Shown: positions 41,763-62,143, numbered from the stretch's first letter. The stretch is DNA of 64,000 bases from a virus (IMGVR_UViG_2579778842_000017:1-64000), one strand, 5' to 3'. Notes: a model not told the origin generated them from the letters alone. Program-made: numbers and translations.

Positions 41763-42093
41763 ATCAGCAGCAGAGCGCAAAGCCGCTCAGAGAGCCAGAC
41801 AAGCTGCATCTGGTGTGCGTAAGCTGGAGATTGTGCTTGATGCTCAGGAAATTGAAATGCTGGAGCGTAACTGTGCCACGCGTCGCCCCGGGCGTGCGCC
41901 TTACGAATTTGGTGAGTATATAGCGTTACTGATCCGCCAGGATGATGCACGCGTGCACGGGCGTATAAAATCGATCAGCAGAAAACGTTGCGGTAAGTGC
42001 GGCGAGAGAGTTCCTGTGAATTCATGCCCGTGTAATGGTGACTCGCAATGCTGGGTGACTAAAGGCTGGCATGAAACGAAATTAATAGTGTGA
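41755..42093 (+). CDS. Small basic protein with C-terminal Cys cluster (zinc-finger-like), last gene before the second terminase
   Basis: 112 aa; basic helical N-terminus, CGKCGERVPVNSCPCNGDSQC; stop codon lies inside the GTGACATGTCAC palindrome. Confidence 0.5.
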   Translation: MAKSAAERKAAQRARQAASGVRKLEIVLDAQEIEMLERNCATRRPGRAPYEFGEYIALLIRQDDARVHGRIKSISRKRCGKCGERVPVNSCPCNGDSQCWVTKGWHETKLIV

Positions 42094-42101
42094 CATGTCA
42101 C
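42090..42101. repeat. Palindrome GTGACATGTCAC (copy 1 of 3)
   Basis: perfect 12-bp palindrome at the junction between early-left operon and second virion module. Confidence 0.6.
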
Positions 42102-42142
42102 GAGTAGATTATGCATGATGAATTTGATGGGTTTTGAATACT

Positions 42143-42168
42143 GCCGCCAACTATGGCGGCTTTATTTT
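42143..42168 (+). terminator. Rho-independent terminator
   Basis: GCCGCCAACTATGGCGGC then TTTATTTT. Confidence 0.65.
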
Positions 42169-42211
42169 GCATGGTACTATTACCACAACGGTAACTATTA
42201 CCACGGTGGTT

Positions 42212-42808
42212 ATGATGCCTGCTGAACCTAAAACCTATAAACGCAAATCAACGCAATTTAAGCCACTAACAGCAATGCAGGAGGCTTATTGCCAGTCATA
42301 CATCAAAACGCCTGAAAACCAGACTCAGGCAGCGATTAACGCAGGATTCTCCCCAAATACAGCGGCAGTTAAAGCCAGTGTCATGATGCGCGATGAACGC
42401 ATTCAAAAACGGATTGCCGAGCTGATGGAGGAGCGCAACAAACGAATGCGCGTCAGTGCTGATTACGTTCTCATGCGCCTGGTGGAGATCGACCAGATGG
42501 ACGTGATTGATATCCTCAACGACGATGGGAGTCTTAAGCCAATCCGCGAGTGGCCGAAAATCTGGCGCACTACGCTTAGTGGCTTTGATCTGTCATCGAC
42601 CATCATGAACATGAACGAGGATTCGATAGAGACAATCCTCAAAAAAATTAAATGGCCTGACAAGATGAAGAACCTCGAACTGATTGGTAAGCACGTCGAC
42701 GTTAACGCGTTCAAAGAGCGCCTGGAGGTTTCCGGCACGGTCACCATCGCCGACCGCATGGCCGCCGCCCGGCGCCGCGTCATAGAGCAGGCTGGTGGTG
42801 AAGAATGA
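42212..42808 (+). CDS. Terminase small subunit (second virion module)
   Basis: about 200 aa from MMPAEPKTYKRK, directly upstream of and overlapping TerL; ORF track extends to a TTG at 42134. Confidence 0.7.
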   Translation: MMPAEPKTYKRKSTQFKPLTAMQEAYCQSYIKTPENQTQAAINAGFSPNTAAVKASVMMRDERIQKRIAELMEERNKRMRVSADYVLMRLVEIDQMDVIDILNDDGSLKPIREWPKIWRTTLSGFDLSSTIMNMNEDSIETILKKIKWPDKMKNLELIGKHVDVNAFKERLEVSGTVTIADRMAAARRRVIEQAGGEE

Positions 42809-44280
42809 CAGCCGCAGCCATGTCGCCGGAAGAGCAACTCGTCGAGGATATCGCCTCGTTCACGTATGACCCGCTGGGCTATGCGCTGTATGCGTTTCCG
42901 TGGGGCGAGGAAGGCACAGAGCTGGCGCACGCCACCGGTCCGCGTAAGTGGCAGGCAGACGCATTCCGCGAGATACGCGATCACCTGCAGAACCCGGCGA
43001 CGCGTCACCAGCCGTTGATGCTGGCCCGCGCATCCGGCCACGGCATCGGCAAGTCAGCTTTCATCTCAATGCTGATTAACTGGGGCATGTCCACTTGCGA
43101 GGATTGTAAGGTCGTGGTGACCGCCAACACCGACAACCAGCTACGAACGAAGACCTGGCCGGAAATTATCAAGTGGTCGAACCTTGCTATCACGAAAGAC
43201 TGGTTTACCTGTACCGCTACCGCGATGTACAGCAATGACCCTGGGCACGACAAGCGGTGGCGAGCTGACGCAATCCCCTGGTCTGAGCACAACACTGAGG
43301 CATTCGCCGGATTACACAATGAGCGCAAACGCATCATCGTGGTATTCGATGAAGCGTCGAACATTGCGGATCTGGTGTGGGAAGTTGCTGAGGGTGCGCT
43401 TACGGACGAAGACACTGAGATTATCTGGGTGGCGTTCGGAAACCCGACACGTAACACCGGGCGTTTCCGCGAATGTTTCCGCAAATATAAACACCGCTGG
43501 AAAACTGCACAGATTGACAGCCGGACGGTGGAAGGTACTAACAAGCAGCAATTACAGAAATGGGTTGATGACTACGGGGAAGACAGCGACTTCGTTAAAG
43601 TCCGTGTGCGCGGCATATTTCCTGATGCATCTGAATTGCAGTTTATCCCTACCGGTCTTACTGACGAGGCAATGAAACGGGTGGTAACTGCTGCGCAGGT
43701 GGCACATGCTCCGGTGATAATCGGCGTTGACCCGGCATACTCCGGCGTTGATGACGCTGTGATATACCTGCGGCAGGGGCTGCACAGTAAGGTGCTGTGG
43801 ACTGGCAACAAGACCACTGACGATCTGATAATGGCGAAGCGTATCGCTGACTTTGAAGACCAGTACCAGGCTGACGCAGTGTTCATCGACTTCGGTTACG
43901 GAACCGGTCTGAAATCAATCGGTGACGGATGGGGTCGTACATGGCAACTTGTTCCGTTCGGTGGCGCGTCTACTGACCCGCAGATGCTCAACAAGCGTGG
44001 GGAGATGTTCAACTCATGCAAGACATGGCTGAGGCTGGGCGGCATGCTGGATGACCAGGAAACAGCGGACGACCTGTCTGCGGCAGAGTACAAAGTTCGA
44101 GTGGACGGTAAAATCGTTATCGAACCGAAGGAAGATATCAAGGAGCGGCTTGGGCGTTCGCCTGGTAAAGGCGATGCGCTACTGCTGACGTTTGCTTTCC
44201 CGGTGTCAAAGCGCCTGCGACTTCCCGGGCAGCAGAACCAGCAAGGCAAGGCCATCACAGATTACGATCCCTATGCTTAA
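42805..44280 (+). CDS. Terminase large subunit (second virion module)
   Basis: 491 aa; Walker A-like ARASGHGIGKS, nuclease-like C-terminal half. Confidence 0.85.
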   Translation: MTAAAMSPEEQLVEDIASFTYDPLGYALYAFPWGEEGTELAHATGPRKWQADAFREIRDHLQNPATRHQPLMLARASGHGIGKSAFISMLINWGMSTCEDCKVVVTANTDNQLRTKTWPEIIKWSNLAITKDWFTCTATAMYSNDPGHDKRWRADAIPWSEHNTEAFAGLHNERKRIIVVFDEASNIADLVWEVAEGALTDEDTEIIWVAFGNPTRNTGRFRECFRKYKHRWKTAQIDSRTVEGTNKQQLQKWVDDYGEDSDFVKVRVRGIFPDASELQFIPTGLTDEAMKRVVTAAQVAHAPVIIGVDPAYSGVDDAVIYLRQGLHSKVLWTGNKTTDDLIMAKRIADFEDQYQADAVFIDFGYGTGLKSIGDGWGRTWQLVPFGGASTDPQMLNKRGEMFNSCKTWLRLGGMLDDQETADDLSAAEYKVRVDGKIVIEPKEDIKERLGRSPGKGDALLLTFAFPVSKRLRLPGQQNQQGKAITDYDPYA

Positions 44281-44330
44281 TCCGCTTGAGGGGATAATGT
44301 CGTTGATATCCTCTGATGAGGATAAAACAA

Positions 44331-44354
44331 AGCCAGCTCATAGGCTGGCTGTTT
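44331..44354 (+). terminator. Rho-independent terminator after TerL
   Basis: AGCCAGCTCATAGGCTGGCT followed by GTTTGTG. Confidence 0.5.
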
Positions 44355-44366
44355 GTGATATGTCAC
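44355..44366. repeat. Palindrome GTGATATGTCAC (copy 2, one mismatch)
   Basis: immediately after the TerL terminator. Confidence 0.5.
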
Positions 44367-44370
44367 GGTG

Positions 44371-44742
44371 TTATTGCTCGCTTAACTTCTGCTTCAGCAA
44401 GTAACCTTCAAGCATCCAGATTTTGTTTACAGCATTCTGTCGGGCAATCTTCCGACCAATTTCTGCATCAAAGTTTTCCGGGCTTGCACAGGCGCTCTCT
44501 CCGGTGACGGTGAAGCCGTTGCGCAGCACCAGGACGCAGAACGTCAGCAGAGAAAGTGATTCGTGCGGCTGGTAGTTTACCTCTCCGCCAGTATGTTTCG
44601 CTTTTATGGCTACGCCAAAGGCACCATCTTCTGCTGTGAAATATGCCTCCTGAGCAATAATGCTCTCGATATGGTCTGGCGTAACGCGCGGCGCGGCTAA
44701 ACCTTTAGCCTGAATTTCAGATTCAATGTCTTTGTCACTCAT
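44371..44742 (-). CDS. Hypothetical moron protein between terL and portal
   Basis: 123-aa minus-strand ORF inserted in an otherwise plus-strand virion operon. Confidence 0.6.
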   Translation of the reverse strand: MSDKDIESEIQAKGLAAPRVTPDHIESIIAQEAYFTAEDGAFGVAIKAKHTGGEVNYQPHESLSLLTFCVLVLRNGFTVTGESACASPENFDAEIGRKIARQNAVNKIWMLEGYLLKQKLSEQ

Positions 44743-44943
44743 AGTCTAATCTCACCTTAAAAATGCCCGGCGAACCGGGCGAACTGGAAGCAATGAGTTA
44801 TGCCTTCCGTGGCTGTACGGGTTTACAGCATGAAGTCATCGCAATGGCGTCCTGCTGTAAAAAGGGCGGTGATAGTCCTTCAAGGGAAACCATCACCGCC
44901 AAGCCCCTGGAACTTCTGGCATCACGGTCCTTAGGCGTGATTC

Positions 44944-45020
44944 TGGCGTGGCATGCAGGATTCGAACCTGCGACCAACCGCTTAGAAGGCGGTTGCTCTG
45001 TCCGACTGAGCTAATGCCAC
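44944..45020 (-). tRNA. Phage-borne tRNA-Arg (anticodon UCU)
   Basis: minus strand reads GTGGCATTAGCTCAGTCGGACAGAGCAACCGCCTTCTAAGCGGTTGGTCGCAGGTTCGAATCCTGCATGCCACGCCA: 7-bp acceptor stem, anticodon loop CTTCTAA, 3' CCA. Confidence 0.8.
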
Positions 45021-45447
45021 AACGCTGAGAGCACTTAGCCTGTTAAGGCACCACACTTTGTCGCGGCTCCATAAATGCTCTCATCGTTGTACCCTCGTCT
45101 CTTCCGAGGCGTCACACCGAATCGCCGGGATGGTGAATCCCCGTGCGCGGCATAAAACCGCTCGACTTGCACATTCCGGCTACCTGGTTCGTTTGCCCGA
45201 GCAAGGGAGGGTGCCCCTTAAACGTATCCAGACCGCTATCGGCGCATGTGCCATACGCCGTACTGCTCAAAATAAAAGCTCACTCCACCTGTTCAATTTA
45301 ACGACAAGCCAGTCAGGTTAATAACAGGAATGCACTCTATGCTTACCTGAAAGGTAATAATTCGTGCGTTAAATGTCAACTACCTACGATAAATAAATCA
45401 TATGTGGTTAAATTGGTAATAATTTAATTGCGTACGGAGTCATTGAT

Positions 45448-45654
45448 ATGTGCATGGGTAGCTCACCATCAGTGCCTGCAACACCAGAAGTTCAGGCAGC
45501 ACCACAGGAGCAGGATGCCGCCGTTGTTGATGCCCGCGACGAAGAAACTCGTCGCCGTCGCGCTGCTGCTGGTCGTAGTTCTACGCTGCTTACCGGTTCT
45601 CAGGGCGACACATCAACCGCTAATACCAGCGGTAAAACGCTGCTTGGTCAGTAA
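45448..45654 (+). CDS. Small hypothetical protein upstream of portal
   Basis: 68 aa; GGAGTCATTGA-ATG initiation region nearly identical to that of the portal gene. Confidence 0.4.
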   Translation: MCMGSSPSVPATPEVQAAPQEQDAAVVDARDEETRRRRAAAGRSSTLLTGSQGDTSTANTSGKTLLGQ

Positions 45655-45668
45655 CCGGAGTCATTGAA

Positions 45669-47348
45669 ATGGCGGAAACAACTAAAGAGCGATTGAACAA
45701 ACAGTTCGCACAACTTGAAAGCGAGCGTCAGTCGTTCGAGCCGCACTGGCGCGAGTTGAGTGATTACATCAACCCGCGTGGTTCCCGCTTTCTGACTTCT
45801 GAGGTCAACCGTAACGATCGACGCAATACACGCATTATTGATTCGACCGGGACTATGGCGGCGCGCACTCTCGCCAGCGGCATGATGTCAGGCATCACAA
45901 GCCCCGCGCGTCCGTGGTTTCGCCTGGCTACGCCAGATCCTGAAATGATGGATTATGGCCCTGTTAAGTTGTGGCTTGAGGCGGTGCAGAACCGCATGAA
46001 CGATATGTTCAATAAGTCGAATCTCTATCAGTCGCTGCCGCAGTTATACGGAAGCCTCGGCACATACAGCACTGGTGCAATGGCAGTGCTGGAGGATGAC
46101 GAGGACATCATTCGCACAATGCCATTCACGATAGGCAGTTACTACCTGGCTAACTCACCTCGTGGCAGTGTGGACACCTGTTTTCGCAAGTTCTCTATGA
46201 CTGTTCGTCAGCTTGTTCAGGAGTTCGGGCTAAATAACGTCAGCGAATCCGTAAAAAGCATGTGGGAAAGCGGCACCTACGAGAAGTGGATTGAAGTGAT
46301 GCATTCGGTTTACCCGAACATTGACCGCGATACATCGAAGCTGGATAGCAAGAACAAGCCATTCAAATCGGTTTATTACGAGGTTGGTGGCGATAACGAC
46401 AAGTTGTTGCGTGAGTCCGGATTCGATGAGTTTCCAATTATGGCTCCGCGCTGGGAAGTTAACGGCGAAGATGTTTATGGATCATCATGCCCGGGCATGC
46501 TGGCGCTTGGACCTGTTAAGGCATTGCAGCTTCTCCAGAAGCGCAAGTCGCAGTTGATTGATAAAGCCACCAATCCGCCGATGGTTGCTCCGATTTCCCT
46601 CAAGAATCAGCGTGCCTCCCTTCTTCCTGGCGACATCACGTATATCGATCAGATTACTGGTCAGGATGGTTTCAGGCCTGCTTATCTGGTTAACCCCAGT
46701 ACAGCAGATTTGGTGGCAGACATTCAGGACACTCGTCAAATCATTAACAGCGCCTACTTTGTCGATCTGTTCATGATGTTGCAGAACATCAATACCCGCT
46801 CGATGCCTGTTGAAGCGGTGATCGAAATGAAAGAAGAAAAACTTCTGATGTTGGGGCCGGTTCTGGAGCGTCTGAACGACGAATGTCTTAATCCTCTCAT
46901 TGACCGCGCTTTCTCGATGATGGTGCGTAAAAACATGTTGCCGCCACCGCCTGACGCGATGGAAGGCATGCCCCTGAAGGTCGAATACATTTCCGTCATG
47001 GCTCAGGCGCAGAAGTCTATCGGCCTGTCCAGTCTGGCGTCCACGGTTAACTTCATTGGTCAACTTGCGCAAGCGAAACCAGAAGCTCTCGACAAACTCA
47101 ACGTTGATCAGGCGATCGATGCATTCGCTGATATGTCCGGAGTGTCTCCAACCGTCATTGTTCCGCAGGAACAGGTTGAGCAGGCTCGCCAGCAACGGGC
47201 ACAGCAACAACAGCAGCAACAAATGATGGCCATGGGGATGGCGGCGGCACAGGGTGCCAAGACGCTAAGCGAAGCTAAAACTTCGGATCCGAGTGTTTTG
47301 TCAGCTATGGCGAATGCAGTTAGTGGTCAGGGTGGGCAATCACAATGA
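45669..47348 (+). CDS. Portal (head-tail connector) protein, T7-supergroup-like
   Basis: 559 aa; C-terminal QQQQQQMMAMGMAAAQGAKT...AMANAV resembles T7 gp8 C-terminus; follows TerL. Confidence 0.75.
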   Translation: MAETTKERLNKQFAQLESERQSFEPHWRELSDYINPRGSRFLTSEVNRNDRRNTRIIDSTGTMAARTLASGMMSGITSPARPWFRLATPDPEMMDYGPVKLWLEAVQNRMNDMFNKSNLYQSLPQLYGSLGTYSTGAMAVLEDDEDIIRTMPFTIGSYYLANSPRGSVDTCFRKFSMTVRQLVQEFGLNNVSESVKSMWESGTYEKWIEVMHSVYPNIDRDTSKLDSKNKPFKSVYYEVGGDNDKLLRESGFDEFPIMAPRWEVNGEDVYGSSCPGMLALGPVKALQLLQKRKSQLIDKATNPPMVAPISLKNQRASLLPGDITYIDQITGQDGFRPAYLVNPSTADLVADIQDTRQIINSAYFVDLFMMLQNINTRSMPVEAVIEMKEEKLLMLGPVLERLNDECLNPLIDRAFSMMVRKNMLPPPPDAMEGMPLKVEYISVMAQAQKSIGLSSLASTVNFIGQLAQAKPEALDKLNVDQAIDAFADMSGVSPTVIVPQEQVEQARQQRAQQQQQQQMMAMGMAAAQGAKTLSEAKTSDPSVLSAMANAVSGQGGQSQ

Positions 47349-47641
47349 CAGATTACGAAGACGATCAACTGAAAGAAGAAAACGCCCGTAAGCAACGTGA
47401 CATGGCACAGCGTGAAATTGATGACATTCGCTTTGTCATGAGCAGTGAACAGGGGCGTCGCGTTGTCTGGTCTGTGCTGGAGAAAGGCCGTGTGTTTTCC
47501 GCTATCTCTCCGATGGATGCTATGGCAATGGCATTTAATGAGGGGCAACGCAATCTGGCGCTGGAACTGTTTCAGCGCGTTATGGCGCATTGCCCTGAAC
47601 AGTATTTGAAGATGGCCAAAGAGGCCAGTGAACAGGAGTGA
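47345..47641 (+). CDS. Hypothetical head-module protein
   Basis: 98-aa ORF overlapping portal stop. Confidence 0.5.
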   Translation: MTDYEDDQLKEENARKQRDMAQREIDDIRFVMSSEQGRRVVWSVLEKGRVFSAISPMDAMAMAFNEGQRNLALELFQRVMAHCPEQYLKMAKEASEQE

Positions 47642-48339
47642 TCATGAATTTATTTGAGCGTTTGCTGTATCGCCGTCTTTGCAATGAGCAACCAGTCGAT
47701 GGTGGAGCAGCTCCGGCTGCGTCAGAACCATCAGCGCCTGCAGGTGATAACCATGCTCCAGTTGGTGATCCATCACAACAAGAAGGTGATAAGCCGCAAC
47801 CTGTTGCTGATGGCGATAAACCTGCTGATGACAAAAAGTCTGAAAGCGATAAGCAGGGTGAAAAAAAGGACGGCGATAAACCGGATGGTGCGCCGGAGAA
47901 GTACGAGTTTCAGGCTGCCGAAGGCGTAGAGCTGGATACAGAAGCGTTGAAGGAATTCGAGCCGGTGGCGCGAGAACTAAACCTGACCAACGAGCAAGCG
48001 CAAAAGCTGGTTGATGCTTATCCGAAGATTCTGGCAGGTGTTCAGCAGCGCCAGGCAGAAGCCTGGCAGAAAACAACCGAGCAGTGGGCTGCTGATGTAA
48101 AAGCTGACAAAGAAATCGGTGGCGACAAGTTGATTTCTAACCTTAGCGCCGCACAGCGTGCGCTTGACCAGTTCGGGACACCTGAACTCAAAGAATATCT
48201 GAACACCACCGGGCTGGGTAATCACCCTGATCTGGTCAAAACGTTCGTGAAAATCGGAAAGGCGATGTCTGAAGATGGCATGGTCACCGGTGGTAATGAA
48301 GGCCAGCGTAGTGCGGCCGAAGTGCTCTATGGCAAATAA
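47638..48339 (+). CDS. Putative scaffolding protein
   Basis: 233 aa, acidic Pro/Ala/Asp-rich N-terminal region then helical part; between portal and capsid. Confidence 0.55.
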   Translation: MIMNLFERLLYRRLCNEQPVDGGAAPAASEPSAPAGDNHAPVGDPSQQEGDKPQPVADGDKPADDKKSESDKQGEKKDGDKPDGAPEKYEFQAAEGVELDTEALKEFEPVARELNLTNEQAQKLVDAYPKILAGVQQRQAEAWQKTTEQWAADVKADKEIGGDKLISNLSAAQRALDQFGTPELKEYLNTTGLGNHPDLVKTFVKIGKAMSEDGMVTGGNEGQRSAAEVLYGK

Positions 48340-48347
48340 GAGAGGAA

Positions 48348-49340
48348 ATGACAATGGCTGTTAAAGGCTTAACTGCGCTAACGCTGGCTGACTGGGGTAA
48401 GCGCGTCGATCCAAACGGGAAAGTCGATAAGATTATCGAGCTTCTCGGTCAAACTAACCCGATCCTTCAGGATATGCCTTTTGTCGAAGGGAACCTTCCT
48501 ACCGGACACCGAACCACCATTCGTTCTGGTTTACCTTCAGCTACCTGGCGTTTGCTGAACTATGGCGTACAGCCAAGCAAATCAACCACAGTGCAGGTAA
48601 CCGATTCCGTTGGCATGCTGGAAACCTATGCTGAAGTCGATAAGTCACTGGCTGATCTGAACGGCAATACCGCCGAATTCCGCCTGTCTGAAGACCGCGC
48701 ATTTATTGAAGCGATGAATCAGCAGATGGCGCAGACGCTATTTTATGGTGATTCCAGCGTTAACCCTCAGCAGTTTATGGGACTGTCCTCCCGCTATTCC
48801 AGCCTGTCTGCGGGTAATGCTCAGAACATCATTGATGCTGGTGGCACGGGTACAGATAACACCTCCATCTGGTTAGTGGTGTGGGGCGAAAACACCGTGC
48901 ATGGCATCTTCCCGAAAGGGCAGAAGGCTGGCATTCAGATGGAAGATAAAGGCCAGGTGACACTGGAAGATGTTAATGGCGGCAAGTACGAAGGCTACCG
49001 TACCCATTACAAATGGGATAACGGACTTGCTCTGCGTGACTGGCGTTATGTTGTTCGCATTGCAAACATCGATGTCAGCAATCTTTCAGAACCTTCCTCT
49101 GCCGCAAATATTGCGAAGTTGATGGTTAAAGCACTGCATCGCATTCCAAATCGTGGCATGGGTCGCCCGGTGTTCTACATGAACCGCACTGTAGGCCAGG
49201 CTCTTGATCTGCAATCTCTGGAGAAAACATCTCTGGCGATCAGCGTAAAAGAGACAGAAGGCGAGTGGTGGACTTCATTCCGTGGTGTACCAATCCGTGA
49301 AACTGATGCGCTTCTGGAAACAGAAGCCCGCGTGGTGTAA
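48348..49340 (+). CDS. Major capsid protein (second virion module)
   Basis: 330 aa, strong RBS, position after scaffold. Confidence 0.7.
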   Translation: MTMAVKGLTALTLADWGKRVDPNGKVDKIIELLGQTNPILQDMPFVEGNLPTGHRTTIRSGLPSATWRLLNYGVQPSKSTTVQVTDSVGMLETYAEVDKSLADLNGNTAEFRLSEDRAFIEAMNQQMAQTLFYGDSSVNPQQFMGLSSRYSSLSAGNAQNIIDAGGTGTDNTSIWLVVWGENTVHGIFPKGQKAGIQMEDKGQVTLEDVNGGKYEGYRTHYKWDNGLALRDWRYVVRIANIDVSNLSEPSSAANIAKLMVKALHRIPNRGMGRPVFYMNRTVGQALDLQSLEKTSLAISVKETEGEWWTSFRGVPIRETDALLETEARVV

Positions 49341-49391
49341 CGCCTGTTATTAACCTGTGGGTCGTAACAGACCCACTAATGGAGAAAGAAG

Positions 49392-49829: not shown

Positions 49830-49830
49830 G

Positions 49831-50175: not shown

Positions 50176-50186
50176 GCCTCGCGAAT

Positions 50187-50212
50187 CAGACAAGGGGCTT
50201 CGGCCCCTTTAT
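50187..50212 (+). terminator. Rho-independent terminator
   Basis: AAGGGGCTTCGGCCCCTTTATTG. Confidence 0.65.
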
Positions 50213-50219
50213 TGCAGGA

Positions 50220-54634: not shown

Positions 54635-57147
54635 TGCCAGTCGTACCAACAGTATCCGGACGTCAGGTTGAGAGCCGTGGAGTTCAGTCAGCAGGCTTGC
54701 AGACGTTTTCTCAGCCAGGTATTGGTGATGCTTTTGTTCGGGCAGGGACAGAGGCAATTGATGTTTTGGGGCAGGCAAAACAGCGTGCCAATATCGCTCT
54801 GGCTCAGGAGGCATCTCTTAACCTCAGTCAGATAAGCAGCGATCTGCTGAATAATCCTGAAACAGGATTGCTTAACCTGAAAGGGAAAAATGCTATTGGA
54901 AAAGGCCATGAGTATACGCAGCAGTTTGATGCTCAGGTCGAACAACTGGCTATGTCGCTGCCGGATGAACAGGCTCGTAATGCTTTCATGCAGCAGGCGC
55001 AGCAGCAGCGCATTCAGTTCACTACGCAGGCCGGGCGACACGAGATAGGGCAAATTAATGCCTACGAAGAAGGCCAGTTTCAGGCGACACTGCTGAACAA
55101 TGGTAAAAATGCCGCAGCATTGTATGGCGACAACGCCGCATACGTATTGGCTAACAAGCAAACTTTCCAGCAAATTGAGGAGTACGGTGTTGCACATGGC
55201 TGGAGCAACGAGCAAATCCAGGCCAAGAAAATCGAGTTTAAAGAGAAGGTTGCTGATGCTGCATTGTCCCAGTGGTCGGCAAACAATGCGACCGCATTCA
55301 TCCAAAGTAATGGCGAGTTAAGTGATACTGCTGCTGGAGCTCGCCGTGCTGTAGCAGATAGTGACTCTTCCGAGCGTGCCCGTGGCATACGCAACAATAA
55401 CCCAGGAAATCTCGAATACAGCAAAACTAATCCGTGGGTAGGCCAGACCGGTGATGATGGTCGATTTGCTAAATTCGAAACACCTGAACACGGGATTCGT
55501 GCATTAGGGCGGAACCTGATGTCGTATCAGAGGCAGGGTATTGATACTGTCAGCGAGATAATTAATCGCTGGGCACCGCCTGCTGATAAAAATGACACTA
55601 TGTCGTATATCAAAGCAGTGTGCGAACAACTTGGCGTTTCTGCTGATGAGCCTCTCGATGCATCTAATCCTGATACCCTGAAGGCGCTTTGTGCAGCCAT
55701 TATCCATCATGAGAACGGTAGCCAGCCATACAGTGATCAGCAGTTAACTGCTGGTGTCAGTGCAGCACTTGGTTTATCAACAATTCCAACCAACACCAAA
55801 CGCTATACCGGTAATGCAGCATTCGATGCGGCATCTCCTGAGGCGCAGGCAAGTTTTATGCGACAGGCGGATCAACTGCGTCGGCAGCAGCAGGCTGAAT
55901 ATAAAACGATGATTGACAGCCAGGTTCGCGATGCGACAGCTGCGTATATGCGTGGCGTTGAATTTCCTAACCCACCTGGTGAGGCTGATTTTATTGCAGC
56001 TTATGGAGTAAGAGAAGGAAACCTGCGATATACCGAGTTCAGAAATACGCAAATCGCCGGACAGTATATAGGCTCTTTCCGCAACATGCCGACAAGCAGC
56101 ATTACAGCATATGTTGAGCAATTACGCCCGGATACTGGTGAGACAGGGGAGGGTTATGCGGCACGAGCCGCTCTTTATGACAACGTTGTGTCGGCTGCAA
56201 GTCAGGTGATAAAGCAGCGACAGGCTGATCCTGTACAGTTCTCTCTTGCCGCCGGACAGGCAAAGCCTATCGACATGAGCAATAAGGATAACTTTGGACA
56301 GAGCGTTGCCTTGCGTGCTGCTCAGGTCAGTGACCTTGCTAAGTCATATGGCACTCCACTGACGTTCTTTTCCAAAGACGAGGCCAATCAGATCGGTGTT
56401 TTCTTTCGTGATGCTCCAGTTTCCCAACAGGCAGCATATCTCGACACCATCAGGCAGAGCACTGGTGGTGGGCAGGTGTATATGTCAGCACTACAGCAGA
56501 TCAGTGCCAACGCTCCATCTGCTGCCGTTGCCGGGATACTGATGGATAAGCCTGGTGGTATTTTGGCAGAAAAAAACTGGTTTAATCCGGATGTTTCCGT
56601 GTCTCCTGAAACCGCTGCGCAGACAATTCTTGCTGGCGCGGCGGCTCGTAAAGGTACTGATGATGCGAAAGGTATTCCGATGCCTAAAGATGCTGATCTT
56701 CGCCTTGAGTTTTCTGACATGGTGAAGGATGCATTTGCTGGTGACGCTCATGGGGCATCAATGGCATACGAGATCGCAAAGGATTATTACGCTGGTGTGA
56801 TGGCGAAAAAAGGCGTGGTATCAGGAGAAATTGACAATGATGTCTGGAAACAGGCTGTTAACGTAGCTACAGGTGGCGTGCATGACTATAACGGAATGGG
56901 GAATGTCCTTTTGCCGTGGGGAATGTCTGCAGAGCAATTCGATAAGCAGGTTAATCAGGCTTGGAATGAACAAGTTGTCGGCTCCGGGATAAAAACACCG
57001 CCTGGTCAGTATGGTTTGCAAAGTTACGGCGATAGTCAGTACCTGGTGAAACTTGGTACTGGTTATCTGCTGAAAGATGATGGTTCTCCCGTTGTTCTTA
57101 ATCTGACACAGAAGCGTCAGAGATTCTCCGGAGATATTCCGCAATGA
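54634..57147 (+). CDS. Large internal virion / ejection protein
   Basis: about 837 aa from MPVVPTVSGRQ (TAATG coupling, GGAGGA RBS); GIRNNNPGNLEY motif. Confidence 0.6.
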   Translation: MPVVPTVSGRQVESRGVQSAGLQTFSQPGIGDAFVRAGTEAIDVLGQAKQRANIALAQEASLNLSQISSDLLNNPETGLLNLKGKNAIGKGHEYTQQFDAQVEQLAMSLPDEQARNAFMQQAQQQRIQFTTQAGRHEIGQINAYEEGQFQATLLNNGKNAAALYGDNAAYVLANKQTFQQIEEYGVAHGWSNEQIQAKKIEFKEKVADAALSQWSANNATAFIQSNGELSDTAAGARRAVADSDSSERARGIRNNNPGNLEYSKTNPWVGQTGDDGRFAKFETPEHGIRALGRNLMSYQRQGIDTVSEIINRWAPPADKNDTMSYIKAVCEQLGVSADEPLDASNPDTLKALCAAIIHHENGSQPYSDQQLTAGVSAALGLSTIPTNTKRYTGNAAFDAASPEAQASFMRQADQLRRQQQAEYKTMIDSQVRDATAAYMRGVEFPNPPGEADFIAAYGVREGNLRYTEFRNTQIAGQYIGSFRNMPTSSITAYVEQLRPDTGETGEGYAARAALYDNVVSAASQVIKQRQADPVQFSLAAGQAKPIDMSNKDNFGQSVALRAAQVSDLAKSYGTPLTFFSKDEANQIGVFFRDAPVSQQAAYLDTIRQSTGGGQVYMSALQQISANAPSAAVAGILMDKPGGILAEKNWFNPDVSVSPETAAQTILAGAAARKGTDDAKGIPMPKDADLRLEFSDMVKDAFAGDAHGASMAYEIAKDYYAGVMAKKGVVSGEIDNDVWKQAVNVATGGVHDYNGMGNVLLPWGMSAEQFDKQVNQAWNEQVVGSGIKTPPGQYGLQSYGDSQYLVKLGTGYLLKDDGSPVVLNLTQKRQRFSGDIPQ

Positions 57148-58946
57148 GTTACTTTGGCCTTAATCCAGTAAACCAGAATCAGCAGCTTGACGAAGCAGCA
57201 TCAAATCCAGCTGGCTTTAACAGCGATGTTGGTTTTTTCGACAATGCTGTAGGAGCGGCATTGTCTGGTTTGTACTCCGGGCTGGTGGCAAAGCCAGATC
57301 AGTTGCTATGGGCAGGGATGGATAAAATCGTATCCCCGATTGCTCAGTTTGTTAACGAAAACACCTCGCTCAATGACACTTCAGTTTCATACATTGCTGA
57401 GCAGAGAAAACTAGCAGAGCAGCAGGTTAAGCGGCTGACGCCTGATGCCGCGACAACCGGAACCGCCGGGCAGGTCCTTTATGGGTTGTTCGATATGGGC
57501 GGGCAGGCTGTTGTCGGTACAACGCTCGGTGGTCCGGTCGGAGGTGCTGCGGCGGTAACTTCGCTACAGGGTTTTTCTGAGTTTGAACGGCTGACAGCAC
57601 AGGGTGTTGATTTCAGGACGGCGCAGGAAGCGGGATTAGTGCAGGGTATTACTGCTGGTGCCGGAACACTGATCCCTATGAGCCTCGGGTTACGTGCTGG
57701 TGGTGCGCTGGCGGAAGGTGTGGCGGCTCAGCTTGCGCGGACGGGTGAAAGTTCAGTGCGACGCGCCGCAGCAACAGCAGTACGTGCAACGCCAGATATT
57801 GCCTATGCCGCAGGTACAAATATTGCGTTCGGTATGGCACAGCGTGGGCTTACTGCAAAAACGCTTCGTGATGGTGGCTATAGCGAAATGGCTAACCAGT
57901 ATGATGTGTTGGATCGACAGGCAATTGCTATTGATGCTGTTCTTGGGGTGGCGTTTGGTGGTGTCGGCAGATTTATTAACTCTCGCGGCGAGTCTACAAG
58001 CGCACCAAATTTTTCACCAGTTGATATTGATGCTGCACTGGCGGCGAATGCCGCTCATCATGCTGAAATTGATATTGCTCCCGGCGTTCCGATCAACGTG
58101 CTTTCGCGTAATTCGCACATTCAGGCTCTGCGAAAAGCCATGTCTGATGTTAGCCAGGGGAGACCTGTAGACGTTGCCAGCATTGTTGAGTCTGCATCTT
58201 TCAGTGAAATTCCTGGGCGCAAGAGTCTGCTGTCTCAGGCAGTTAATGAGGCTCTGTCATCTGTAGATGATGGAGTAACTGCGCGCGCTATAGAAAATCG
58301 GTTGCTTGAAGAACAGGCCGCGCAGCTTTTGTCGCGTGGCGATAGACAGGTTTACCAGTCTGAAATCGCTAATAGCCAACGAATTATTGAAAATCTCACT
58401 GAACAGCGCGCACAAATTCTTGCAGAAGAGCCAACCGGTAGCGGTAAGGCTTTATCTCGTGCTCGATCAGATAAACAGGCCAGACTTCGCGATATTGACC
58501 AACGAATCCGGCAGGCACAAGAACGCCTGGAATTTTCTCGTAACGCGTTGGCGCCGCACGAGCCTGGAGGTCAGTTTTTTGAAGCTCGAGCAGAACTGGC
58601 ACGACGACAGCAGGCAGAAAGTGAACTTAATGCTCAGGCTGTTTCATTCTATAAAACAGCAGAGGTCAGGACGCCAGACGAAGTAGCTCCTTTTGAGCCC
58701 GGTAAGATATTGCAACAGACAGAACAAAAAATGATGGCAGATCCGGCAGGAGATATTGATCTGCGTATAGCTGAAGACTCGCTGCTTGAATCTCCGGACA
58801 TGATAATCACCGTGCTGGATGATGATGGTAATCCACAATCGCGCAGTGCGCGTGAAGTACTGGATGAAGCGAACAGGGAAAGTGAGCAGGCAATACAGGA
58901 TTCCAGCCTGTTTGATGTCGCTGTGGCGTGTTTCTTGAGAGGTTAA
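57144..58946 (+). CDS. Large internal virion / ejection protein
   Basis: 600 aa, Ala/Gly-rich. Confidence 0.6.
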   Translation: MSYFGLNPVNQNQQLDEAASNPAGFNSDVGFFDNAVGAALSGLYSGLVAKPDQLLWAGMDKIVSPIAQFVNENTSLNDTSVSYIAEQRKLAEQQVKRLTPDAATTGTAGQVLYGLFDMGGQAVVGTTLGGPVGGAAAVTSLQGFSEFERLTAQGVDFRTAQEAGLVQGITAGAGTLIPMSLGLRAGGALAEGVAAQLARTGESSVRRAAATAVRATPDIAYAAGTNIAFGMAQRGLTAKTLRDGGYSEMANQYDVLDRQAIAIDAVLGVAFGGVGRFINSRGESTSAPNFSPVDIDAALAANAAHHAEIDIAPGVPINVLSRNSHIQALRKAMSDVSQGRPVDVASIVESASFSEIPGRKSLLSQAVNEALSSVDDGVTARAIENRLLEEQAAQLLSRGDRQVYQSEIANSQRIIENLTEQRAQILAEEPTGSGKALSRARSDKQARLRDIDQRIRQAQERLEFSRNALAPHEPGGQFFEARAELARRQQAESELNAQAVSFYKTAEVRTPDEVAPFEPGKILQQTEQKMMADPAGDIDLRIAEDSLLESPDMIITVLDDDGNPQSRSAREVLDEANRESEQAIQDSSLFDVAVACFLRG

Positions 58947-58951
58947 ATTAA

Positions 58952-61426
58952 ATGAGACAGGAATGTATACAAGCGGTCCAGCAGGCGGCGCAGCGCACGT
59001 TAACGGCGCGAGAAATACAGAACATTGAAGACCGCATTTATCGAAATATGCGCTCCATTGCTCGTGATGACCCGATGTCGTGGAGACAACTTTCCGAATC
59101 AGAGCGGCTATATCGTGCAGCACAATTGGCATCTGAAGAATTACAGCGAGAAGCGGCATTAAAGAAACGTCGTGTGGCCCTCACTATAGCCGCACGTCAG
59201 AGATTGGATAAATTTATCAATAGCTATCAAGGGGCTGATGGGAAACTTGGCGCTCTTAACCGTACTATTGCTTTTAATGCAGACGGTAAATCGAATTTCC
59301 TCTCTGTTGAATCCAGAACAAAAGCCACCCGTGATTATGCATTGAGTCAATTGCAGGAGGCATTCGAAGCAGTTGATCCTCGCTTTTTTGGTCTGTTTGA
59401 AGATGAAGCGGGCGTACGTGACCTGGTATATGAAATGCGGGGGCAAAATACTGGCAATGCTAAAGCAAGAAAAGGTGCTAAGGCGTGGAGAGAAGTGACA
59501 GAGCTACTGCGCCGCCGGTTTAATGATGCTGGTGGGGACATTGGCTATCTCGAAAACTGGGGGATCCCTCAACATCATTCTATGGAAAAGGTTGGGGCGG
59601 TATCAAAGGATAAGTGGGTTAGCGATGTTATAGGTAAGCTGGATCGCAAATATTATATCCGAGCCGATGGACAACTGATGAACGATGCCGAGTTGTCTGC
59701 ATTTCTTGGAGAGGCTTATAACACGATCGCTACTGGTGGGCTGAATAAGCTTACTGATACCGGAATGCGAATTTCCGGCGCACGTGCTAACCGTGGTAAT
59801 GCATCACGACAGATACATTTCAAAGATGCAGATTCCTATCTGCAATATCAGCAACTTTATGGCGATCGCTCTCTATGGGAAATCATGGTCGGTCACCTGG
59901 AAGGTATCAGTAAAGATATTGCACTGGTGGAAACATATGGTCCAAACCCCGATCATGTTTTCCGCTCCCTTCTTGATCAGGTTAAGGCAGAAACGGCAAC
60001 AGCTAACCCGAGTAAAACCGGTAAAGTCGAGCGGCTGGCGAACAAAACAGAGAACCTGTACAACTTTATTTCCGGAAAGACACAGCCTGTAGCGAATCCG
60101 CACATCGCGCGATGGTCTGACAATATCCGCAACTGGCTGGTTGCCAGCAGACTCGGATCCGCGTTGCTGTCATCGTTCTCTGATCTTGGAACCATGTATC
60201 TGTCTGCGAAGGTTACCAACCTTCCAATGAACCAGTTATTCCGCAACCAGCTTGAAGCTATGGACCCAACGAACCGTACAGAACTTGCGCGGGCGCGCCG
60301 CGCTGGTCTGGCGATGGAATCTCTACTTGGCAGCGTTAACCGCTGGGCGATGGATAATATGGGGCCGTCAGTGTCTCGTTGGGCGGCAACGGCGGTAATG
60401 CGTGCCAGTGGGCTTACAGCATGGTCAGATGCGCACAAGCGCGCCTATGGCGTAACCATGATGGGAAGCCTGGGAGAAGTAGTGTCACGGACACCAGACC
60501 TTCGTAGCCTCGATGACTATGATTTTCGTATCCTGAAAAGCAAAGGGATTACTGACACAGACTGGAGCGTATGGAAGCTGGCGCAACAGGAGGACTGGGG
60601 GAACGGTAATAATACGATGCTGACACCGGAAAGCATTATGCGTATCCCTGATTCAGCAGTTAAACATCTTGGTGAGCCTGAACGTGTGAAATTTGAGGCA
60701 ATGCGTAAACTGCTCGGTGCCGTAACTGAAGAAGTTGATATGGCTGTTATTACACCGGGCGCACGTGAACGGATGTTCGTAGGGTCTGGTCTTCAGCGTG
60801 GAACATGGAAAGGTGAATTAACGAGAAGTGTTTTCCTGTTTAAATCGTTCCCTATCTCGGTAGTTATGCGTCACTGGCATAGAGCTATGGGGATGCCGTC
60901 TGCTGGTGGGCGTGCGGCATATATAGCAACGTTTTTAGCAAGCACAACCATGCTTGGTGCTCTTTCCATGCAGATTACTGATCTTATTAATGGGAGAAAT
61001 CCAAAAGAAATGACCGGTGACAACATGGTTAAATTCTGGATAAATGCATTTTTAAAAGGTGGTGGGGCAGGGTTGTATGGTGATTTTCTTTTCTCTGACC
61101 ACACCAGGTACGGGAGCGGCGCACTAGCGTCGATGCTTGGCCCGGTAGCTGGTCTGGTTGATGACGTAGTGAAGATTGCTCAGGGCATACCGTTAAATGC
61201 TGTGGAAGGGAAGAATGAGCAGACTGGTGGTGATCTGGTTAAGCTTGGGAAAGGTTTGATGCCTGGTGCGAATCTCTGGTACTTGAAGGCGGCTCTCGAT
61301 CACATGATCTTTAATCAGATGCAGGAGTATTTTTCACCAGGCTATTTGCGTAAAATGGAGCAACGTTCGAAGAAAGAGTTTAACCAGACATACTGGTGGC
61401 GACCTCAGGATGTCACTCCGCAATAA
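58952..61426 (+). CDS. Large internal virion / ejection protein
   Basis: 824 aa, last large gene of the virion operon. Confidence 0.6.
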   Translation: MRQECIQAVQQAAQRTLTAREIQNIEDRIYRNMRSIARDDPMSWRQLSESERLYRAAQLASEELQREAALKKRRVALTIAARQRLDKFINSYQGADGKLGALNRTIAFNADGKSNFLSVESRTKATRDYALSQLQEAFEAVDPRFFGLFEDEAGVRDLVYEMRGQNTGNAKARKGAKAWREVTELLRRRFNDAGGDIGYLENWGIPQHHSMEKVGAVSKDKWVSDVIGKLDRKYYIRADGQLMNDAELSAFLGEAYNTIATGGLNKLTDTGMRISGARANRGNASRQIHFKDADSYLQYQQLYGDRSLWEIMVGHLEGISKDIALVETYGPNPDHVFRSLLDQVKAETATANPSKTGKVERLANKTENLYNFISGKTQPVANPHIARWSDNIRNWLVASRLGSALLSSFSDLGTMYLSAKVTNLPMNQLFRNQLEAMDPTNRTELARARRAGLAMESLLGSVNRWAMDNMGPSVSRWAATAVMRASGLTAWSDAHKRAYGVTMMGSLGEVVSRTPDLRSLDDYDFRILKSKGITDTDWSVWKLAQQEDWGNGNNTMLTPESIMRIPDSAVKHLGEPERVKFEAMRKLLGAVTEEVDMAVITPGARERMFVGSGLQRGTWKGELTRSVFLFKSFPISVVMRHWHRAMGMPSAGGRAAYIATFLASTTMLGALSMQITDLINGRNPKEMTGDNMVKFWINAFLKGGGAGLYGDFLFSDHTRYGSGALASMLGPVAGLVDDVVKIAQGIPLNAVEGKNEQTGGDLVKLGKGLMPGANLWYLKAALDHMIFNQMQEYFSPGYLRKMEQRSKKEFNQTYWWRPQDVTPQ

Positions 61427-61435
61427 GGAACAACA

Positions 61436-61849
61436 ATGAAGGAATTATTGCTGTTATCGGTATTTTTGATATCCGCTTGCTCGACATCCTATGATGTTTA
61501 TGACGGTGTTGATAAGGCATATTGCGACAAAGTTAAAATGGATTTTTCTCTTGCCAAGACGGCGAAGGATAGTTGTATTGATCACTACGTCAAGACTTAT
61601 ACCAAGCCAGCCTCATCGGCATCTGATATTGCTGAAGGTGCTGTGTTTGAGTGTAACAAGGTGATATCCATCGCAGCGAGTTCTTCATACGATGCTGCTG
61701 TATGTGCAATGGCTGAAAGAAACGGCATGTCAGTGCAAAAAATTAATAGCATGATAAGCAGTAATGACGAAGCCAAAATAAGAACTGATATCAGCTCGGT
61801 GAAAAAAGATGCCATGAACAGAGTTGTAAAATATCAGTCATCTTTATAA
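61436..61849 (+). CDS. Lipoprotein (candidate superinfection-exclusion protein)
   Basis: 137 aa, signal peptide with lipobox LISAC; lower GC than neighbours. Confidence 0.6.
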   Translation: MKELLLLSVFLISACSTSYDVYDGVDKAYCDKVKMDFSLAKTAKDSCIDHYVKTYTKPASSASDIAEGAVFECNKVISIAASSSYDAAVCAMAERNGMSVQKINSMISSNDEAKIRTDISSVKKDAMNRVVKYQSSL

Positions 61850-61852
61850 GTC

Positions 61853-61864
61853 GTGACATGTCAC
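61853..61864. repeat. Palindrome GTGACATGTCAC (copy 3)
   Basis: perfect copy right after the lipoprotein stop and before a terminator. Confidence 0.6.
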
Positions 61865-61890
61865 AGGCCGCTTTCGCGGCCTTGTTTTTA
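61865..61890 (+). terminator. Rho-independent terminator ending the virion operon
   Basis: AGGCCGCTTTCGCGGCCT then TGTTTTT. Confidence 0.7.
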
Positions 61891-62049: not shown

Positions 62050-62111
62050 TGTGAAATTTCCATCTATAAGCCACCTCAATGTGGCGTCAATGAGTGTTAG
62101 CACTGACTTTT

Positions 62112-62140: not shown

Positions 62141-62143
62141 GGC

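What the first reader, a model, noticed from the sequence alone, without database searches (positions are those of the whole stretch)
42090..61864. Three copies of a 12-bp palindrome GTGACATGTCAC placed next to terminators at operon boundaries
Copies at 42090-42101 (overlapping the stop codon of the last early gene), 44355-44366 (one mismatch, right after the TerL terminator) and 61853-61864 (right before the virion-operon terminator). All lie in short intergenic gaps and two of them flank the second virion module. This suggests a binding site for a dimeric regulator, a recombination or module-exchange signature, or a site-specific nuclease or methylase target. I did not scan all 64 kb exhaustively.
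Basis: seen in the sequence. Interest (0 to 1): 0.5.

Follow-up and report, generated by a model that had tools for sequence, protein, structure and literature searches.

The report
Phage regulator's conserved DNA-binding palindrome
The repeated 12-base palindrome is real and is very probably the DNA docking site of a small, uncharacterised phage DNA-binding protein encoded right next to the first copy; protein and site occur together in many unrelated phages, and the site has the same half-sites as the bacterial chromosome-organising site matS.

Summary
GTGACATGTCAC is exact at 42090 and 61853 and has one mismatch at 44355; chance expects 0.00 exact copies. The window holds the late half of an epsilon15/phiV10-like phage joined to a P22-like prophage.

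The motif generalises to GTGAC-NN-GTCAC. It occurs together with one protein family: window 41755-42093, epsilon15 gp49, N15 gp46, PHROG 536. I found the pair in about 8 phage lineages with unrelated backbones. In five of those lineages the site overlaps, or lies 3 nt after, the gene's own stop codon.

Pooled over family-bearing DNA there are 42 sites against 0.37 expected. Only the 2-bp spacer is enriched. Lambda, P22, P2 and the co-resident P22-like prophage have none.

The protein model (pLDDT 91.5) has a ribbon-helix-helix (RHH) fold plus a Cys4 knuckle. So the palindrome is most likely this protein's operator.

The sites lie at operon ends, often beside terminators. I infer, without having shown it, that the bound protein blocks or insulates transcription there.

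The half-sites are identical to E. coli matS (13 bp, GTGACRNYGTCAC). The spacer is 1 bp shorter, and homology to MatP is not supported.

I found no prior description of either the motif or the protein family's function.

The parts
41755..42093 (+). Gene for the 112-aa ribbon-helix-helix + Cys4-knuckle protein (epsilon15 gp49 / phiV10 p55 / N15 gp46 family, PHROG 536). It is the proposed binder of the palindrome and the last gene of the plus-strand early operon before terS.
42090..42101 (.). Site A: GTGACATGTCAC, overlapping the TGA stop of the RHH gene.
   Evidence: Present at the same place in 7 of 7 epsilon15-like genomes. The site overlaps, or lies 3 nt after, the family gene's stop in N15, phiKO2, Kpn74, the Yersinia P2-like phage, Vibrio 10N, L097 and ZF40.
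42143..42170 (+). Intrinsic terminator (GCCGCC-AACTAT-GGCGGC + T-run), 41 nt downstream of site A and before terS.
   Evidence: The homologous terminators are annotated in epsilon15 and phiV10.
44331..44350 (.). Bidirectional terminator hairpin between terL (+) and gene 44371-44742 (-). The good T-tract is on the minus-strand side.
44355..44366 (.). Site B: GTGATATGTCAC (1 mismatch), at the convergent junction terL(+) / Phage_gp49_66-family gene(-).
   Evidence: Conserved in 6 of 7 epsilon15-like genomes, exact in most.
61853..61864 (.). Site C: GTGACATGTCAC, at the end of the virion operon. This is a convergent junction with the minus-strand genes that lead back to the Ant antirepressor.
   Evidence: In the alignment of 6 genomes, the only invariant blocks are the 12-mer and the terminator stem.
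61866..61889 (+). Intrinsic terminator GGCCGC-TTTC-GCGGCC + TTGTTTTT, starting 1 nt after site C.
47397..47408 (.). Possible weak or accidental fourth site, GTGACATGGCAC (1 mismatch), inside ORF 47345-47641.
   Evidence: Conserved in phiV10 and ZX5, but it is coding sequence, so the conservation is uninformative.

Best explanation
The palindrome is the cognate DNA-binding site (operator) of the 112-aa protein encoded at 41755-42093. That protein belongs to an uncharacterised phage family with a basic N-terminal arm, a ribbon-helix-helix domain and a C-terminal Cys4 zinc knuckle. The general site is GTGAC-NN-GTCAC.

Shown here:
- The site and the protein family occur together across unrelated phage backbones.
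- The site is usually placed on or next to the gene's own stop codon.
- The arms are invariant and only the 2-bp spacer is enriched.
- The predicted fold is that of dimeric, sequence-specific DNA binders.

Inferred:
- The protein is made as the last product of the early operon. It binds as an RHH dimer, or as two dimers 7 bp apart as the omega repressor does on its heptads.
- The conserved R-K-x-x-Q-R-x-R arm and the beta-ribbon read the half-sites.
- In this phage the bound protein sits at three operon ends: the early/packaging boundary and two convergent junctions. There it acts independently of promoters, as a transcription roadblock or insulator that limits read-through between modules and reinforces the adjacent intrinsic terminators. 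At junctions B and C the site lies on the side of the hairpin that lacks a good T-tract.

I put the site-protein pairing at about 0.8 and the roadblock/insulator function at about 0.35.
For: Statistics:
- 0.00 exact copies expected, 2 found.
- Pooled over 18 family-bearing stretches (557 kb): 42 GTGAC-NN-GTCAC sites against 0.37 expected.
- Spacer control over 295 kb: 22 sites with n=2 against 0-2 for each other spacer from 0 to 6.

Co-occurrence:
- ZF40, a myovirus that shares little with epsilon15 beyond the 66%-identical homologue: 3 exact copies, one of them 3 nt after the gene's stop.
- Yersinia P2-like phage, phiKO2, N15, Kpn74, Vibrio 10N and L097: the site overlaps the homologue's stop codon.
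- Vibrio K303, PhiPS02 and L094: 3 sites each at equivalent places.
- Aeromonas phage: 3 copies of the variant GTGACCGGACAC next to the gene.
- Controls without the family (lambda, P22, P2): 0 sites in 124 kb. The P22-like prophage in the same window also has none.

Footprint: sites A, B and C are retained in 7/7, 6/7 and 6/7 epsilon15-like genomes while the flanks diverge.

Protein:
- AF2 pLDDT 91.5.
- The conserved basic arm and Cys cluster appear in the alignments.

DNA level rather than RNA level:
- The hairpin is worth only -1.2 kcal/mol.
- The arms never show compensatory changes.
- The centre is often asymmetric.

Promoter-independent placement: sites lie at gene ends, at convergent junctions, 12-23 nt upstream of start codons and inside genes, with no fixed distance to promoters.
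Against: There is no binding experiment; the pairing rests on co-occurrence and fold.

- Two family members have no site at their own stop codon (L092, L095), and the Klebsiella phage lacks sites B and C.
- A roadblock function is not demonstrated. Sites next to efficient intrinsic terminators might be redundant.
- In the Klebsiella and Enterobacter relatives, site A sits just upstream of a promoter, which would also suit a classical activator or repressor.
- The lineages are not fully independent samples, so the pooled P-value overstates significance.
Confidence: 0.65

Rival explanations
1. The site is a classical promoter-proximal operator. The RHH protein represses or activates initiation at specific nearby promoters (for example the packaging-operon promoter downstream of site A, or antirepressor-side promoters) rather than blocking elongation.
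For: - RHH proteins are mostly promoter-binding repressors (established knowledge: Arc, Mnt, CopG, omega, antitoxins).
- In the Klebsiella and Enterobacter relatives, site A ends 6 nt before a TTGACT...TATACT promoter with a LexA box.
- In N15, one site lies 24 nt upstream of a TTGACG-18-TAGAGT element facing gene 32.
- In Vibrio phages, sites lie about 20 nt upstream of terS.
Against: - Site-to-promoter distances are inconsistent (centre at about -47 versus about -65).
- Sites B and C lie at 3' ends of convergent operons with no promoter nearby.
- Several sites are inside genes (ZF40, N15 repA).
- The promoter scan around site A finds only one weak match.
Confidence: 0.15
2. The sites are structural or organisational DNA sites (MatP/matS-like or centromere-like). 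The protein bridges, condenses or positions phage DNA, or interferes with host MatP/MukBEF, and transcription is not the target.
For: - The half-sites are identical to matS, GTGACRNYGTCAC.
- All hosts of the family found here are Enterobacterales, Vibrio or Aeromonas. From my own knowledge, that is the clade that has MatP.
- There are few, dispersed sites per genome with no promoter geometry.
- Several carriers are phage-plasmids or encode ParA-like proteins.
Against: - The spacer is strictly 2 bp, not 3. The few 3-bp hits are ordinary terminator hairpins.
- hhalign against MatP gives probability 0.4%, and no family member hits the MatP Pfam domains.
- The protein lacks MatP's four-helix bundle and coiled coil.
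- The integrating epsilon15-like, ZF40 and P2-like phages need no partition system.
Confidence: 0.1
3. The element is a recombination or mobility signature. The gene and its flanking palindrome form a mobile cassette, or the conserved 12-mer plus terminator acts as a homology patch for module exchange, or the protein nicks or cuts there.
For: - The gene and the site at its stop codon travel together into unrelated backbones.
- Mosaic breakpoints abut site C: window and ZX5/phiV10 similarity ends at 61426-61429 and resumes at 62830-62872, while the 12-mer plus terminator are kept.
Against: - The additional sites are far from the gene, in different contexts.
- The sites are intact, not disrupted.
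- There is no nuclease or recombinase fold.
- Similarity to phiV10 runs straight through sites A and B.
- Selection for binding explains the footprint equally well.
Confidence: 0.05
4. The motif acts at the RNA level, as a short hairpin in 3' UTRs that serves as a processing, stability or antitermination (nut/boxB-like) signal. Alternatively, it is a packaging (pac/cos) signal next to terS.
For: - In epsilon15-like phages every copy is transcribed and lies next to a terminator.
- Site A, and the Vibrio sites, are immediately upstream of terS.
- The phiV10 record is linearised inside the site.
Against: - The hairpin is worth -1.2 kcal/mol, with a 4-bp stem.
- The arm sequence is invariant, without covariation, and the C/G at arm positions 5 and 8 would lie in the loop.
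- Three or more copies per genome are incompatible with a unique cos or pac cut.
- N15 and the P2-like phage have their cos sites elsewhere.
- The phiV10 origin simply follows the last stop codon.
Confidence: 0.04

Closest known systems
MatP / matS (E. coli Ter macrodomain organiser)
   Same: Both have a palindromic site with the same 5-bp arms, GTGAC...GTCAC. Both binders use a ribbon-helix-helix domain preceded by a basic helix. Both have a few dispersed sites rather than promoter-linked operators. The host range coincides with MatP-bearing gamma-proteobacteria.
   Different: matS is 13 bp (spacer RNY), whereas the phage site is 12 bp (spacer NN) and the 3-bp spacer is not enriched. No sequence homology was detected. 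The phage protein lacks the four-helix bundle and coiled coil and has a Cys4 knuckle instead. The sites are on phage DNA at operon ends. True matS is reported absent from 500 prophages (PMC3603311).
Omega repressor (pSM19035), ParG and CopG: RHH proteins with flexible N-terminal arms that bind short 7-bp repeats
   Same: Both are small RHH dimers with basic N-terminal arms. From my own knowledge, omega binds heptads WATCACW in direct or inverted arrangement, one dimer per heptad. The phage site can be read as two inverted heptads, nGTGACA|TGTCACn, with the same TCAC core and a 7-bp register.
   Different: Omega operators have many heptads and lie at promoters. Omega, ParG and CopG have no zinc knuckle and no site at the gene's own stop codon. 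The stoichiometry on the phage site is unknown and was not tested here.
P22 Arc and Mnt (phage RHH repressors)
   Same: They are phage-encoded RHH proteins that bind palindromic operators and control a secondary regulatory circuit (the antirepressor). In this phage, site C lies on the antirepressor side of the virion operon.
   Different: The Arc and Mnt operators are 21 and 17 bp, lie at Pant, and are unrelated in sequence. The two groups of proteins are not detectably homologous.
TraR/DksA-type C4 zinc-finger proteins
   Same: The C-terminal two-thirds of the protein (helix, then CxxCG..LP...C...C) gives weak profile hits to TraR and YbiI (E about 0.02). Such proteins are common in phage early operons (for example P2 Orf82).
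   Different: The match is below significance, there is no Pfam PF01258 hit, and the cysteine spacing differs. The long helix is used as RHH helix B. Binding to RNA polymerase is untested.
Lambda Q and its DNA site: a late regulator gene placed directly upstream of its own site of action
   Same: In both cases the regulator is the last early gene and its DNA site immediately follows the gene at the early/late boundary, next to a terminator.
   Different: Q binds within a promoter and modifies RNA polymerase so that it reads through terminators. Here no promoter surrounds the site. ZF40, N15 and phiKO2 carry a separate Q-like gene as well as this family.

Membership tests
Ribbon-helix-helix (Arc/MetJ/CopG) DNA-binding superfamily | A beta-alpha-alpha fold of about 45-50 residues | tested here: met
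Ribbon-helix-helix (Arc/MetJ/CopG) DNA-binding superfamily | Sequence match to curated RHH models | tested here: not met
   Pfam gives no hit for the window protein. Among 57 members there are only stray hits (RHH_5 in 2 members at E=0.013, RHH_1 in 1 member at E=0.07).
Ribbon-helix-helix (Arc/MetJ/CopG) DNA-binding superfamily | A homodimer that inserts a two-stranded antiparallel sheet into the major groove of a repeated or palindromic site | not testable with these tools
   Only a monomer could be modelled. The palindromic site and its co-occurrence with the protein are consistent with this feature but do not demonstrate it.
MatP/matS system | A 13-bp site, GTGACRNYGTCAC | tested here: not met
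   All phage sites have a 2-bp spacer. There are 0 sites with a 3-bp spacer in the window and 2 in 295 kb, both of them terminator hairpins. The arms are identical to matS.
MatP/matS system | Homology to MatP (Pfam PF06303 MatP N-terminal domain plus PF17414 MatP C-terminal domain) | tested here: not met
MatP/matS system | Tripartite architecture: four-helix bundle, RHH, coiled coil | tested here: not met
   The model has one N-terminal helix, the RHH domain, a Cys knuckle and a short C-terminal helix.
DksA/TraR C4 zinc-finger family | A long helix followed by a CxxC-x17-CxxC zinc finger that matches PF01258 | tested here: inconclusive
   A PDB profile search gives TraR at E=0.02 and YbiI at E=0.03 over query residues 49-112. 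There is no Pfam hit. The family's cysteine pattern is CxxC-x7-9-C-x6-8-C.
nut/boxB-like or other RNA hairpin signal | A stable stem-loop, with pairing preserved by compensatory changes | tested here: not met
   The minimum free energy is -1.2 kcal/mol for every variant. The arms are invariant in about 40 sites, so there is no covariation. The central NN is often asymmetric.
epsilon15-type prophage repressor (Rep) operator | The ATTACC-N5-GGTAAT motif annotated as 'repressor' sites in epsilon15 | tested here: not met
   This is a different motif. It occurs separately in the window at 42179, 42197, 45342 and 62784.

The most novel reading that the evidence does not exclude
The phage family is a MatP-like system of its own. 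A minimal RHH protein reads matS-type half-sites set 1 bp closer together, which keeps phage sites distinct from host matS (a motif that prophages otherwise avoid). The protein either (a) acts as a DNA-bound, site-specific transcription terminator or insulator at operon ends, a mechanism not described for phages, or (b) manipulates host chromosome-organising machinery (MatP/MukBEF) on phage DNA.
Probability: 0.12. Interest if true: 0.85.

Novelty: new variant of a known kind. Interest (0 to 1): 0.6.

Why it matters
It assigns a concrete, testable function (sequence-specific DNA binding) and a precise target (GTGAC-NN-GTCAC) to a protein family that is annotated "hypothetical" in hundreds of enterobacterial, Vibrio and Aeromonas prophages and phage-plasmids, including epsilon15, phiV10, N15, phiKO2 and ZF40.

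The placement of the sites is unusual for an operator: on the regulator's own stop codon, at convergent operon junctions, and beside terminators. This points to promoter-independent control of transcript boundaries in compact phage genomes.

The half-sites are identical to matS. This raises a directly testable question: do phage and host RHH proteins discriminate between sites by a single base pair of spacing, or is there cross-talk with Ter-macrodomain organisation?

A few simple experiments would settle all of this: EMSA with 12-mer versus 13-mer sites, ChIP, and read-through reporters.

Tried and rejected
- **Chance:** rejected by shuffles, Markov expectation and the spacer control.
- **Same as the epsilon15 'repressor' operators annotated by the depositors:** rejected. 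Those are ATTACC-N5-GGTAAT.
- **Q-type antiterminator site:** rejected. There is no surrounding promoter, and ZF40, N15 and phiKO2 have separate Q-like genes.
- **True matS:** rejected on spacer length.
- **MatP homology:** tested and not supported. The MatP homologue search returned only near-identical sequences, so I could not build a diverse MatP profile.
- **RNA hairpin:** rejected on energy and lack of covariation.
- **cos/pac site:** rejected because there are several copies per genome and cos lies elsewhere in N15 and P2-like phages.
- **Methylase or restriction target:** rejected because the centre varies and each arm alone (GTSAC) is not enriched in the window (38 and 47 copies against 62 expected).
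- **Literature:** searches for the motif, for matS-like sites in phages and for epsilon15-group late regulation found nothing relevant.

Dead ends:
- The search for related loci with the family alignment failed because no block was conserved enough.
- The MatP-matS structure paper is not held.
- The afdb50 fold library is unavailable.
- The first viral-contig scan returned only near-identical relatives.


Full report
**1. Observation.** GTGACATGTCAC is exact at 42090-42101 and 61853-61864 (0.00 expected in shuffles). At one mismatch it also occurs at 44355-44366 (GTGATATGTCAC) and 47397-47408 (GTGACATGGCAC, inside a coding region) (0.15 expected). It is the only 12-bp palindrome repeated in the window.

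- Copy 1 contains the TGA stop of ORF 41755-42093 and lies 41 nt before an intrinsic terminator (42143-42170) that precedes terS.
- Copy 2 lies between the bidirectional terminator hairpin after terL (44331-44350) and the stop of the minus-strand gene 44371-44742.
- Copy 3 lies 3 nt after the stop of ORF 61436-61849 and 1 nt before the hairpin GGCCGC-TTTC-GCGGCC plus T-run.

**2. What the window is.** From 41372 to 61426, and again from 62830, the window is colinear at 84-97% identity with epsilon15-like podoviruses (Uetakevirus: ZX5, phiV10).

To the left (about 1.05-41.37 kb) lies a P22-like prophage resembling CUS-3 and phiv205-1, next to tRNA-Arg(CCT). It has the integrase at 1209-2393. 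Its virion genes, Q, NinG and replication genes are on the minus strand. The repressor is at 32912-33562, and Erf, SSB and an exonuclease are on the plus strand.

The two are joined inside the ea/ninX region, just upstream of the 112-aa gene. The P22-like part contains no copy of the motif.

**3. Conservation.** Epsilon15, SPN1S, phiV10, ZX5, 66FD and BUCT554 carry the motif at the same three junctions, A, B and C. The phiV10 record is linearised inside site A. Site A is present in 7 of 7 epsilon15-like genomes; sites B and C are each present in 6 of 7.

In an alignment of junction C from six genomes, the only invariant blocks are the 12-mer and the terminator stem. The upstream gene ends are unrelated. 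In 80 close relatives, sites A and B are usually exact.

**4. The motif goes with a protein, not with a virion module.** ORF 41755-42093 (epsilon15 gp49, phiV10 p55) matches PHROG 536, labelled 'transcriptional regulator', and has no Pfam or NCBIfam match. Its homologues occur in unrelated backbones:
- **Pectobacterium myovirus ZF40** (66% identity): three exact GTGACATGTCAC, one of them 3 nt after the homologue's stop.
- **A Yersinia P2-like phage** (42% identity): GTGACGCGTCAC over the stop codon.
- **phiKO2, N15 and Kpn74:** GTGACTGGTCAC over the stop, plus further copies.
- **Vibrio 10N and contig L097:** GTGACAGGTCAC over the stop.
- **Vibrio K303, PhiPS02 and L094:** three sites each at equivalent places, one about 20 nt upstream of terS.
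- **L095/L096:** two tandem sites at a convergent junction.
- **An Aeromonas phage:** three copies of the variant GTGACCGGACAC next to the gene.

So the general site is GTGAC-NN-GTCAC. Pooled, there are 42 sites against 0.37 expected in 557 kb. Only the 2-bp spacer is enriched: 22 sites against 0-2 for each other spacer from 0 to 6. Lambda, P22 and P2 lack the family by tblastn and have none in 124 kb, while N15 has three.

**5. The protein.** The family is small, with 152 clusters at 50% identity among 1.8 billion representatives. The alignment shows:
- a conserved basic arm, R-K-x-x-Q-R-x-R;
- a beta-strand and two helices;
- a C-terminal CxxCG..LP..C...C cluster.

RHH proteins bind short palindromic or repeated sites as dimers (established knowledge). 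Together with the co-occurrence, this makes the palindrome the likely operator of this protein.

Three points argue for recognition of double-stranded DNA rather than an RNA hairpin:
- The arms are invariant, with no compensatory changes.
- The centre is variable and often asymmetric.
- The hairpin energy is only -1.2 kcal/mol.

The beta-strand residues vary between lineages, as does the central dinucleotide, while the N-terminal arm is constant like the half-sites. This is suggestive and not proof.

**6. Function (inferred).** The family gene is typically the last or near-last gene of an early operon, before the lysis and packaging genes. The sites have no fixed geometry relative to promoters. 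They lie in five kinds of position:
- on the gene's own stop codon;
- 12-23 nt upstream of the next start codon;
- at convergent junctions;
- between operons (N15 28550);
- inside genes (ZF40, N15 repA).

A promoter-independent mechanism fits this best. I propose that the bound protein is a roadblock or insulator for elongating RNA polymerase at operon ends.

In the epsilon15-like phages the order is [site]-[hairpin]-[T-tract] at junctions B and C. So the site lies on the side where the opposing transcript meets a hairpin without a good T-tract. Junction C faces the minus-strand genes that include an Ant-type antirepressor (62873-63598).

I give this function about 0.35. Classical promoter control and a structural role remain open.

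However, homology is not supported:
- hhalign probability is 0.4%.
- No member hits the MatP Pfam domains.
- The domain architecture differs.
- The 3-bp spacer is not enriched.

Bobay et al. found no matS in 500 prophages. The 12-mer escapes that definition. All hosts of the family in the phage collection belong to Enterobacterales, Vibrio or Aeromonas. Whether this reflects convergence, distant common ancestry or functional cross-talk cannot be decided here.

From my own knowledge, a second structural analogy is the omega repressor, which binds 7-bp heptads WATCACW in inverted or direct pairs. The phage site can be read as two inverted heptads with the same TCAC core.

**8. Novelty.** I found no paper that mentions the motif or the function of this family. 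The kind of system, an RHH regulator plus a palindromic operator, is well known. Four things are new:
- the family itself, with its zinc knuckle;
- the matS-type half-sites;
- the recurrent placement on the regulator's own stop codon;
- the placement at operon ends.

**9. Verdict.** The finding is real and non-random. The link to terminators is lineage-specific, and the nuclease/methylase idea is not supported.

Noticed in passing
window 1-41372 versus 41372-64000: The window holds a complete-looking P22-like (CUS-3/phiv205-1-like) prophage next to tRNA-Arg(CCT) (1009-1083). It is fused inside the ea/ninX region to the late half of an epsilon15-like phage, which begins at 41372. No epsilon15-type integrase, Rep repressor or replication genes lie upstream. 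This is either a chimera or a recombined tandem prophage with two virion modules.
   Followed up: partly
window 42179-42195, 42197-42213, 45342-45358, 62784-62800 (and 7472-7488): There are five 1-mismatch copies of the epsilon15-type Rep operator ATTACC-N5-GGTAAT (0.11 expected). They lie upstream of terS, upstream of the gp3-like gene and beside the antirepressor region, exactly where epsilon15 has annotated repressor sites. No epsilon15-type Rep gene is visible in the window, so the late operons may be orphaned from their repressor.
   Followed up: partly
window 42997-43008; epsilon15 832; SPN1S 858; BUCT554 (L103) 21567; Klebsiella phage (L102) 21465: A near-site, GCGAC(A/G)CGTCAC (one arm mismatch), is conserved inside the N-terminal coding part of terL in all epsilon15-like genomes. 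It could be a weak site, or it could be conserved only because it is coding sequence.
   Followed up: no
SPN1S (L084) 26722; epsilon15 (L002) 26618: A degenerate fourth site (GTGACATGTCAT in SPN1S, GTGACATGGCAT in epsilon15) lies right after the Rz stop codon, at the end of the lysis operon and before int. This is another operon end. The corresponding region lies beyond the window.
   Followed up: partly
L102 20279-20340 and L103 20279-20340 (Klebsiella ST512-KPC3phi13.3, Enterobacter BUCT554): In these relatives the terminator after site A is replaced by a promoter-like TTGACT...TATACT overlapping a near-perfect LexA box (TACTGTTTAAATATACAGTA). In BUCT554 the gene that follows is UmuD-like; in the Klebsiella phage it is an unknown 85-aa gene.
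   Followed up: partly
N15 (L101) 28550, 33237, 39269; Kpn74 (L089) 8227, 11522, 15732, 20267; L092 5092: N15-like phage-plasmids keep one site inside the repA coding region. Another lies between the end of the repA operon and a promoter-like TTGACG-18-TAGAGT that faces the antirepressor-side genes 32-30.
   Followed up: partly
window 44944-45020 (-): A phage-borne tRNA-Arg(TCT) lies between the gp49_66-family gene and the gp3-like gene. It is also annotated in related phages (O157 typing phages, SPN9TCW).
   Followed up: no
window 61430-62829: This is a variable island between the conserved 824-aa virion protein gene and the antirepressor. The window has a 137-aa ORF (61436-61849, PHROG 8691) and two minus-strand moron-like ORFs (61888-62268, 62144-62725) where phiV10 and ZX5 have other genes. 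Site C and its terminator are the only conserved sequence inside the island.
   Followed up: partly
K303 (L087) 6769; PhiPS02 (L091) 8818: GTGAC-NNN-GTCAC (matS-length) hits in the Vibrio phages are the stems of ordinary intrinsic terminators (GGGTGAC...GTCACCC followed by a T-run) that overlap a gene's stop codon. They are not matS-type sites.
   Followed up: yes
phiV10 record NC_007804.2 (L001), positions 39104/1: The deposited linear phiV10 sequence starts and ends inside site A (…GTGA | CATGTTAC…), directly after the last stop codon. The site there carries one mismatch. This probably reflects the depositors' choice of origin rather than a physical genome end.
   Followed up: no
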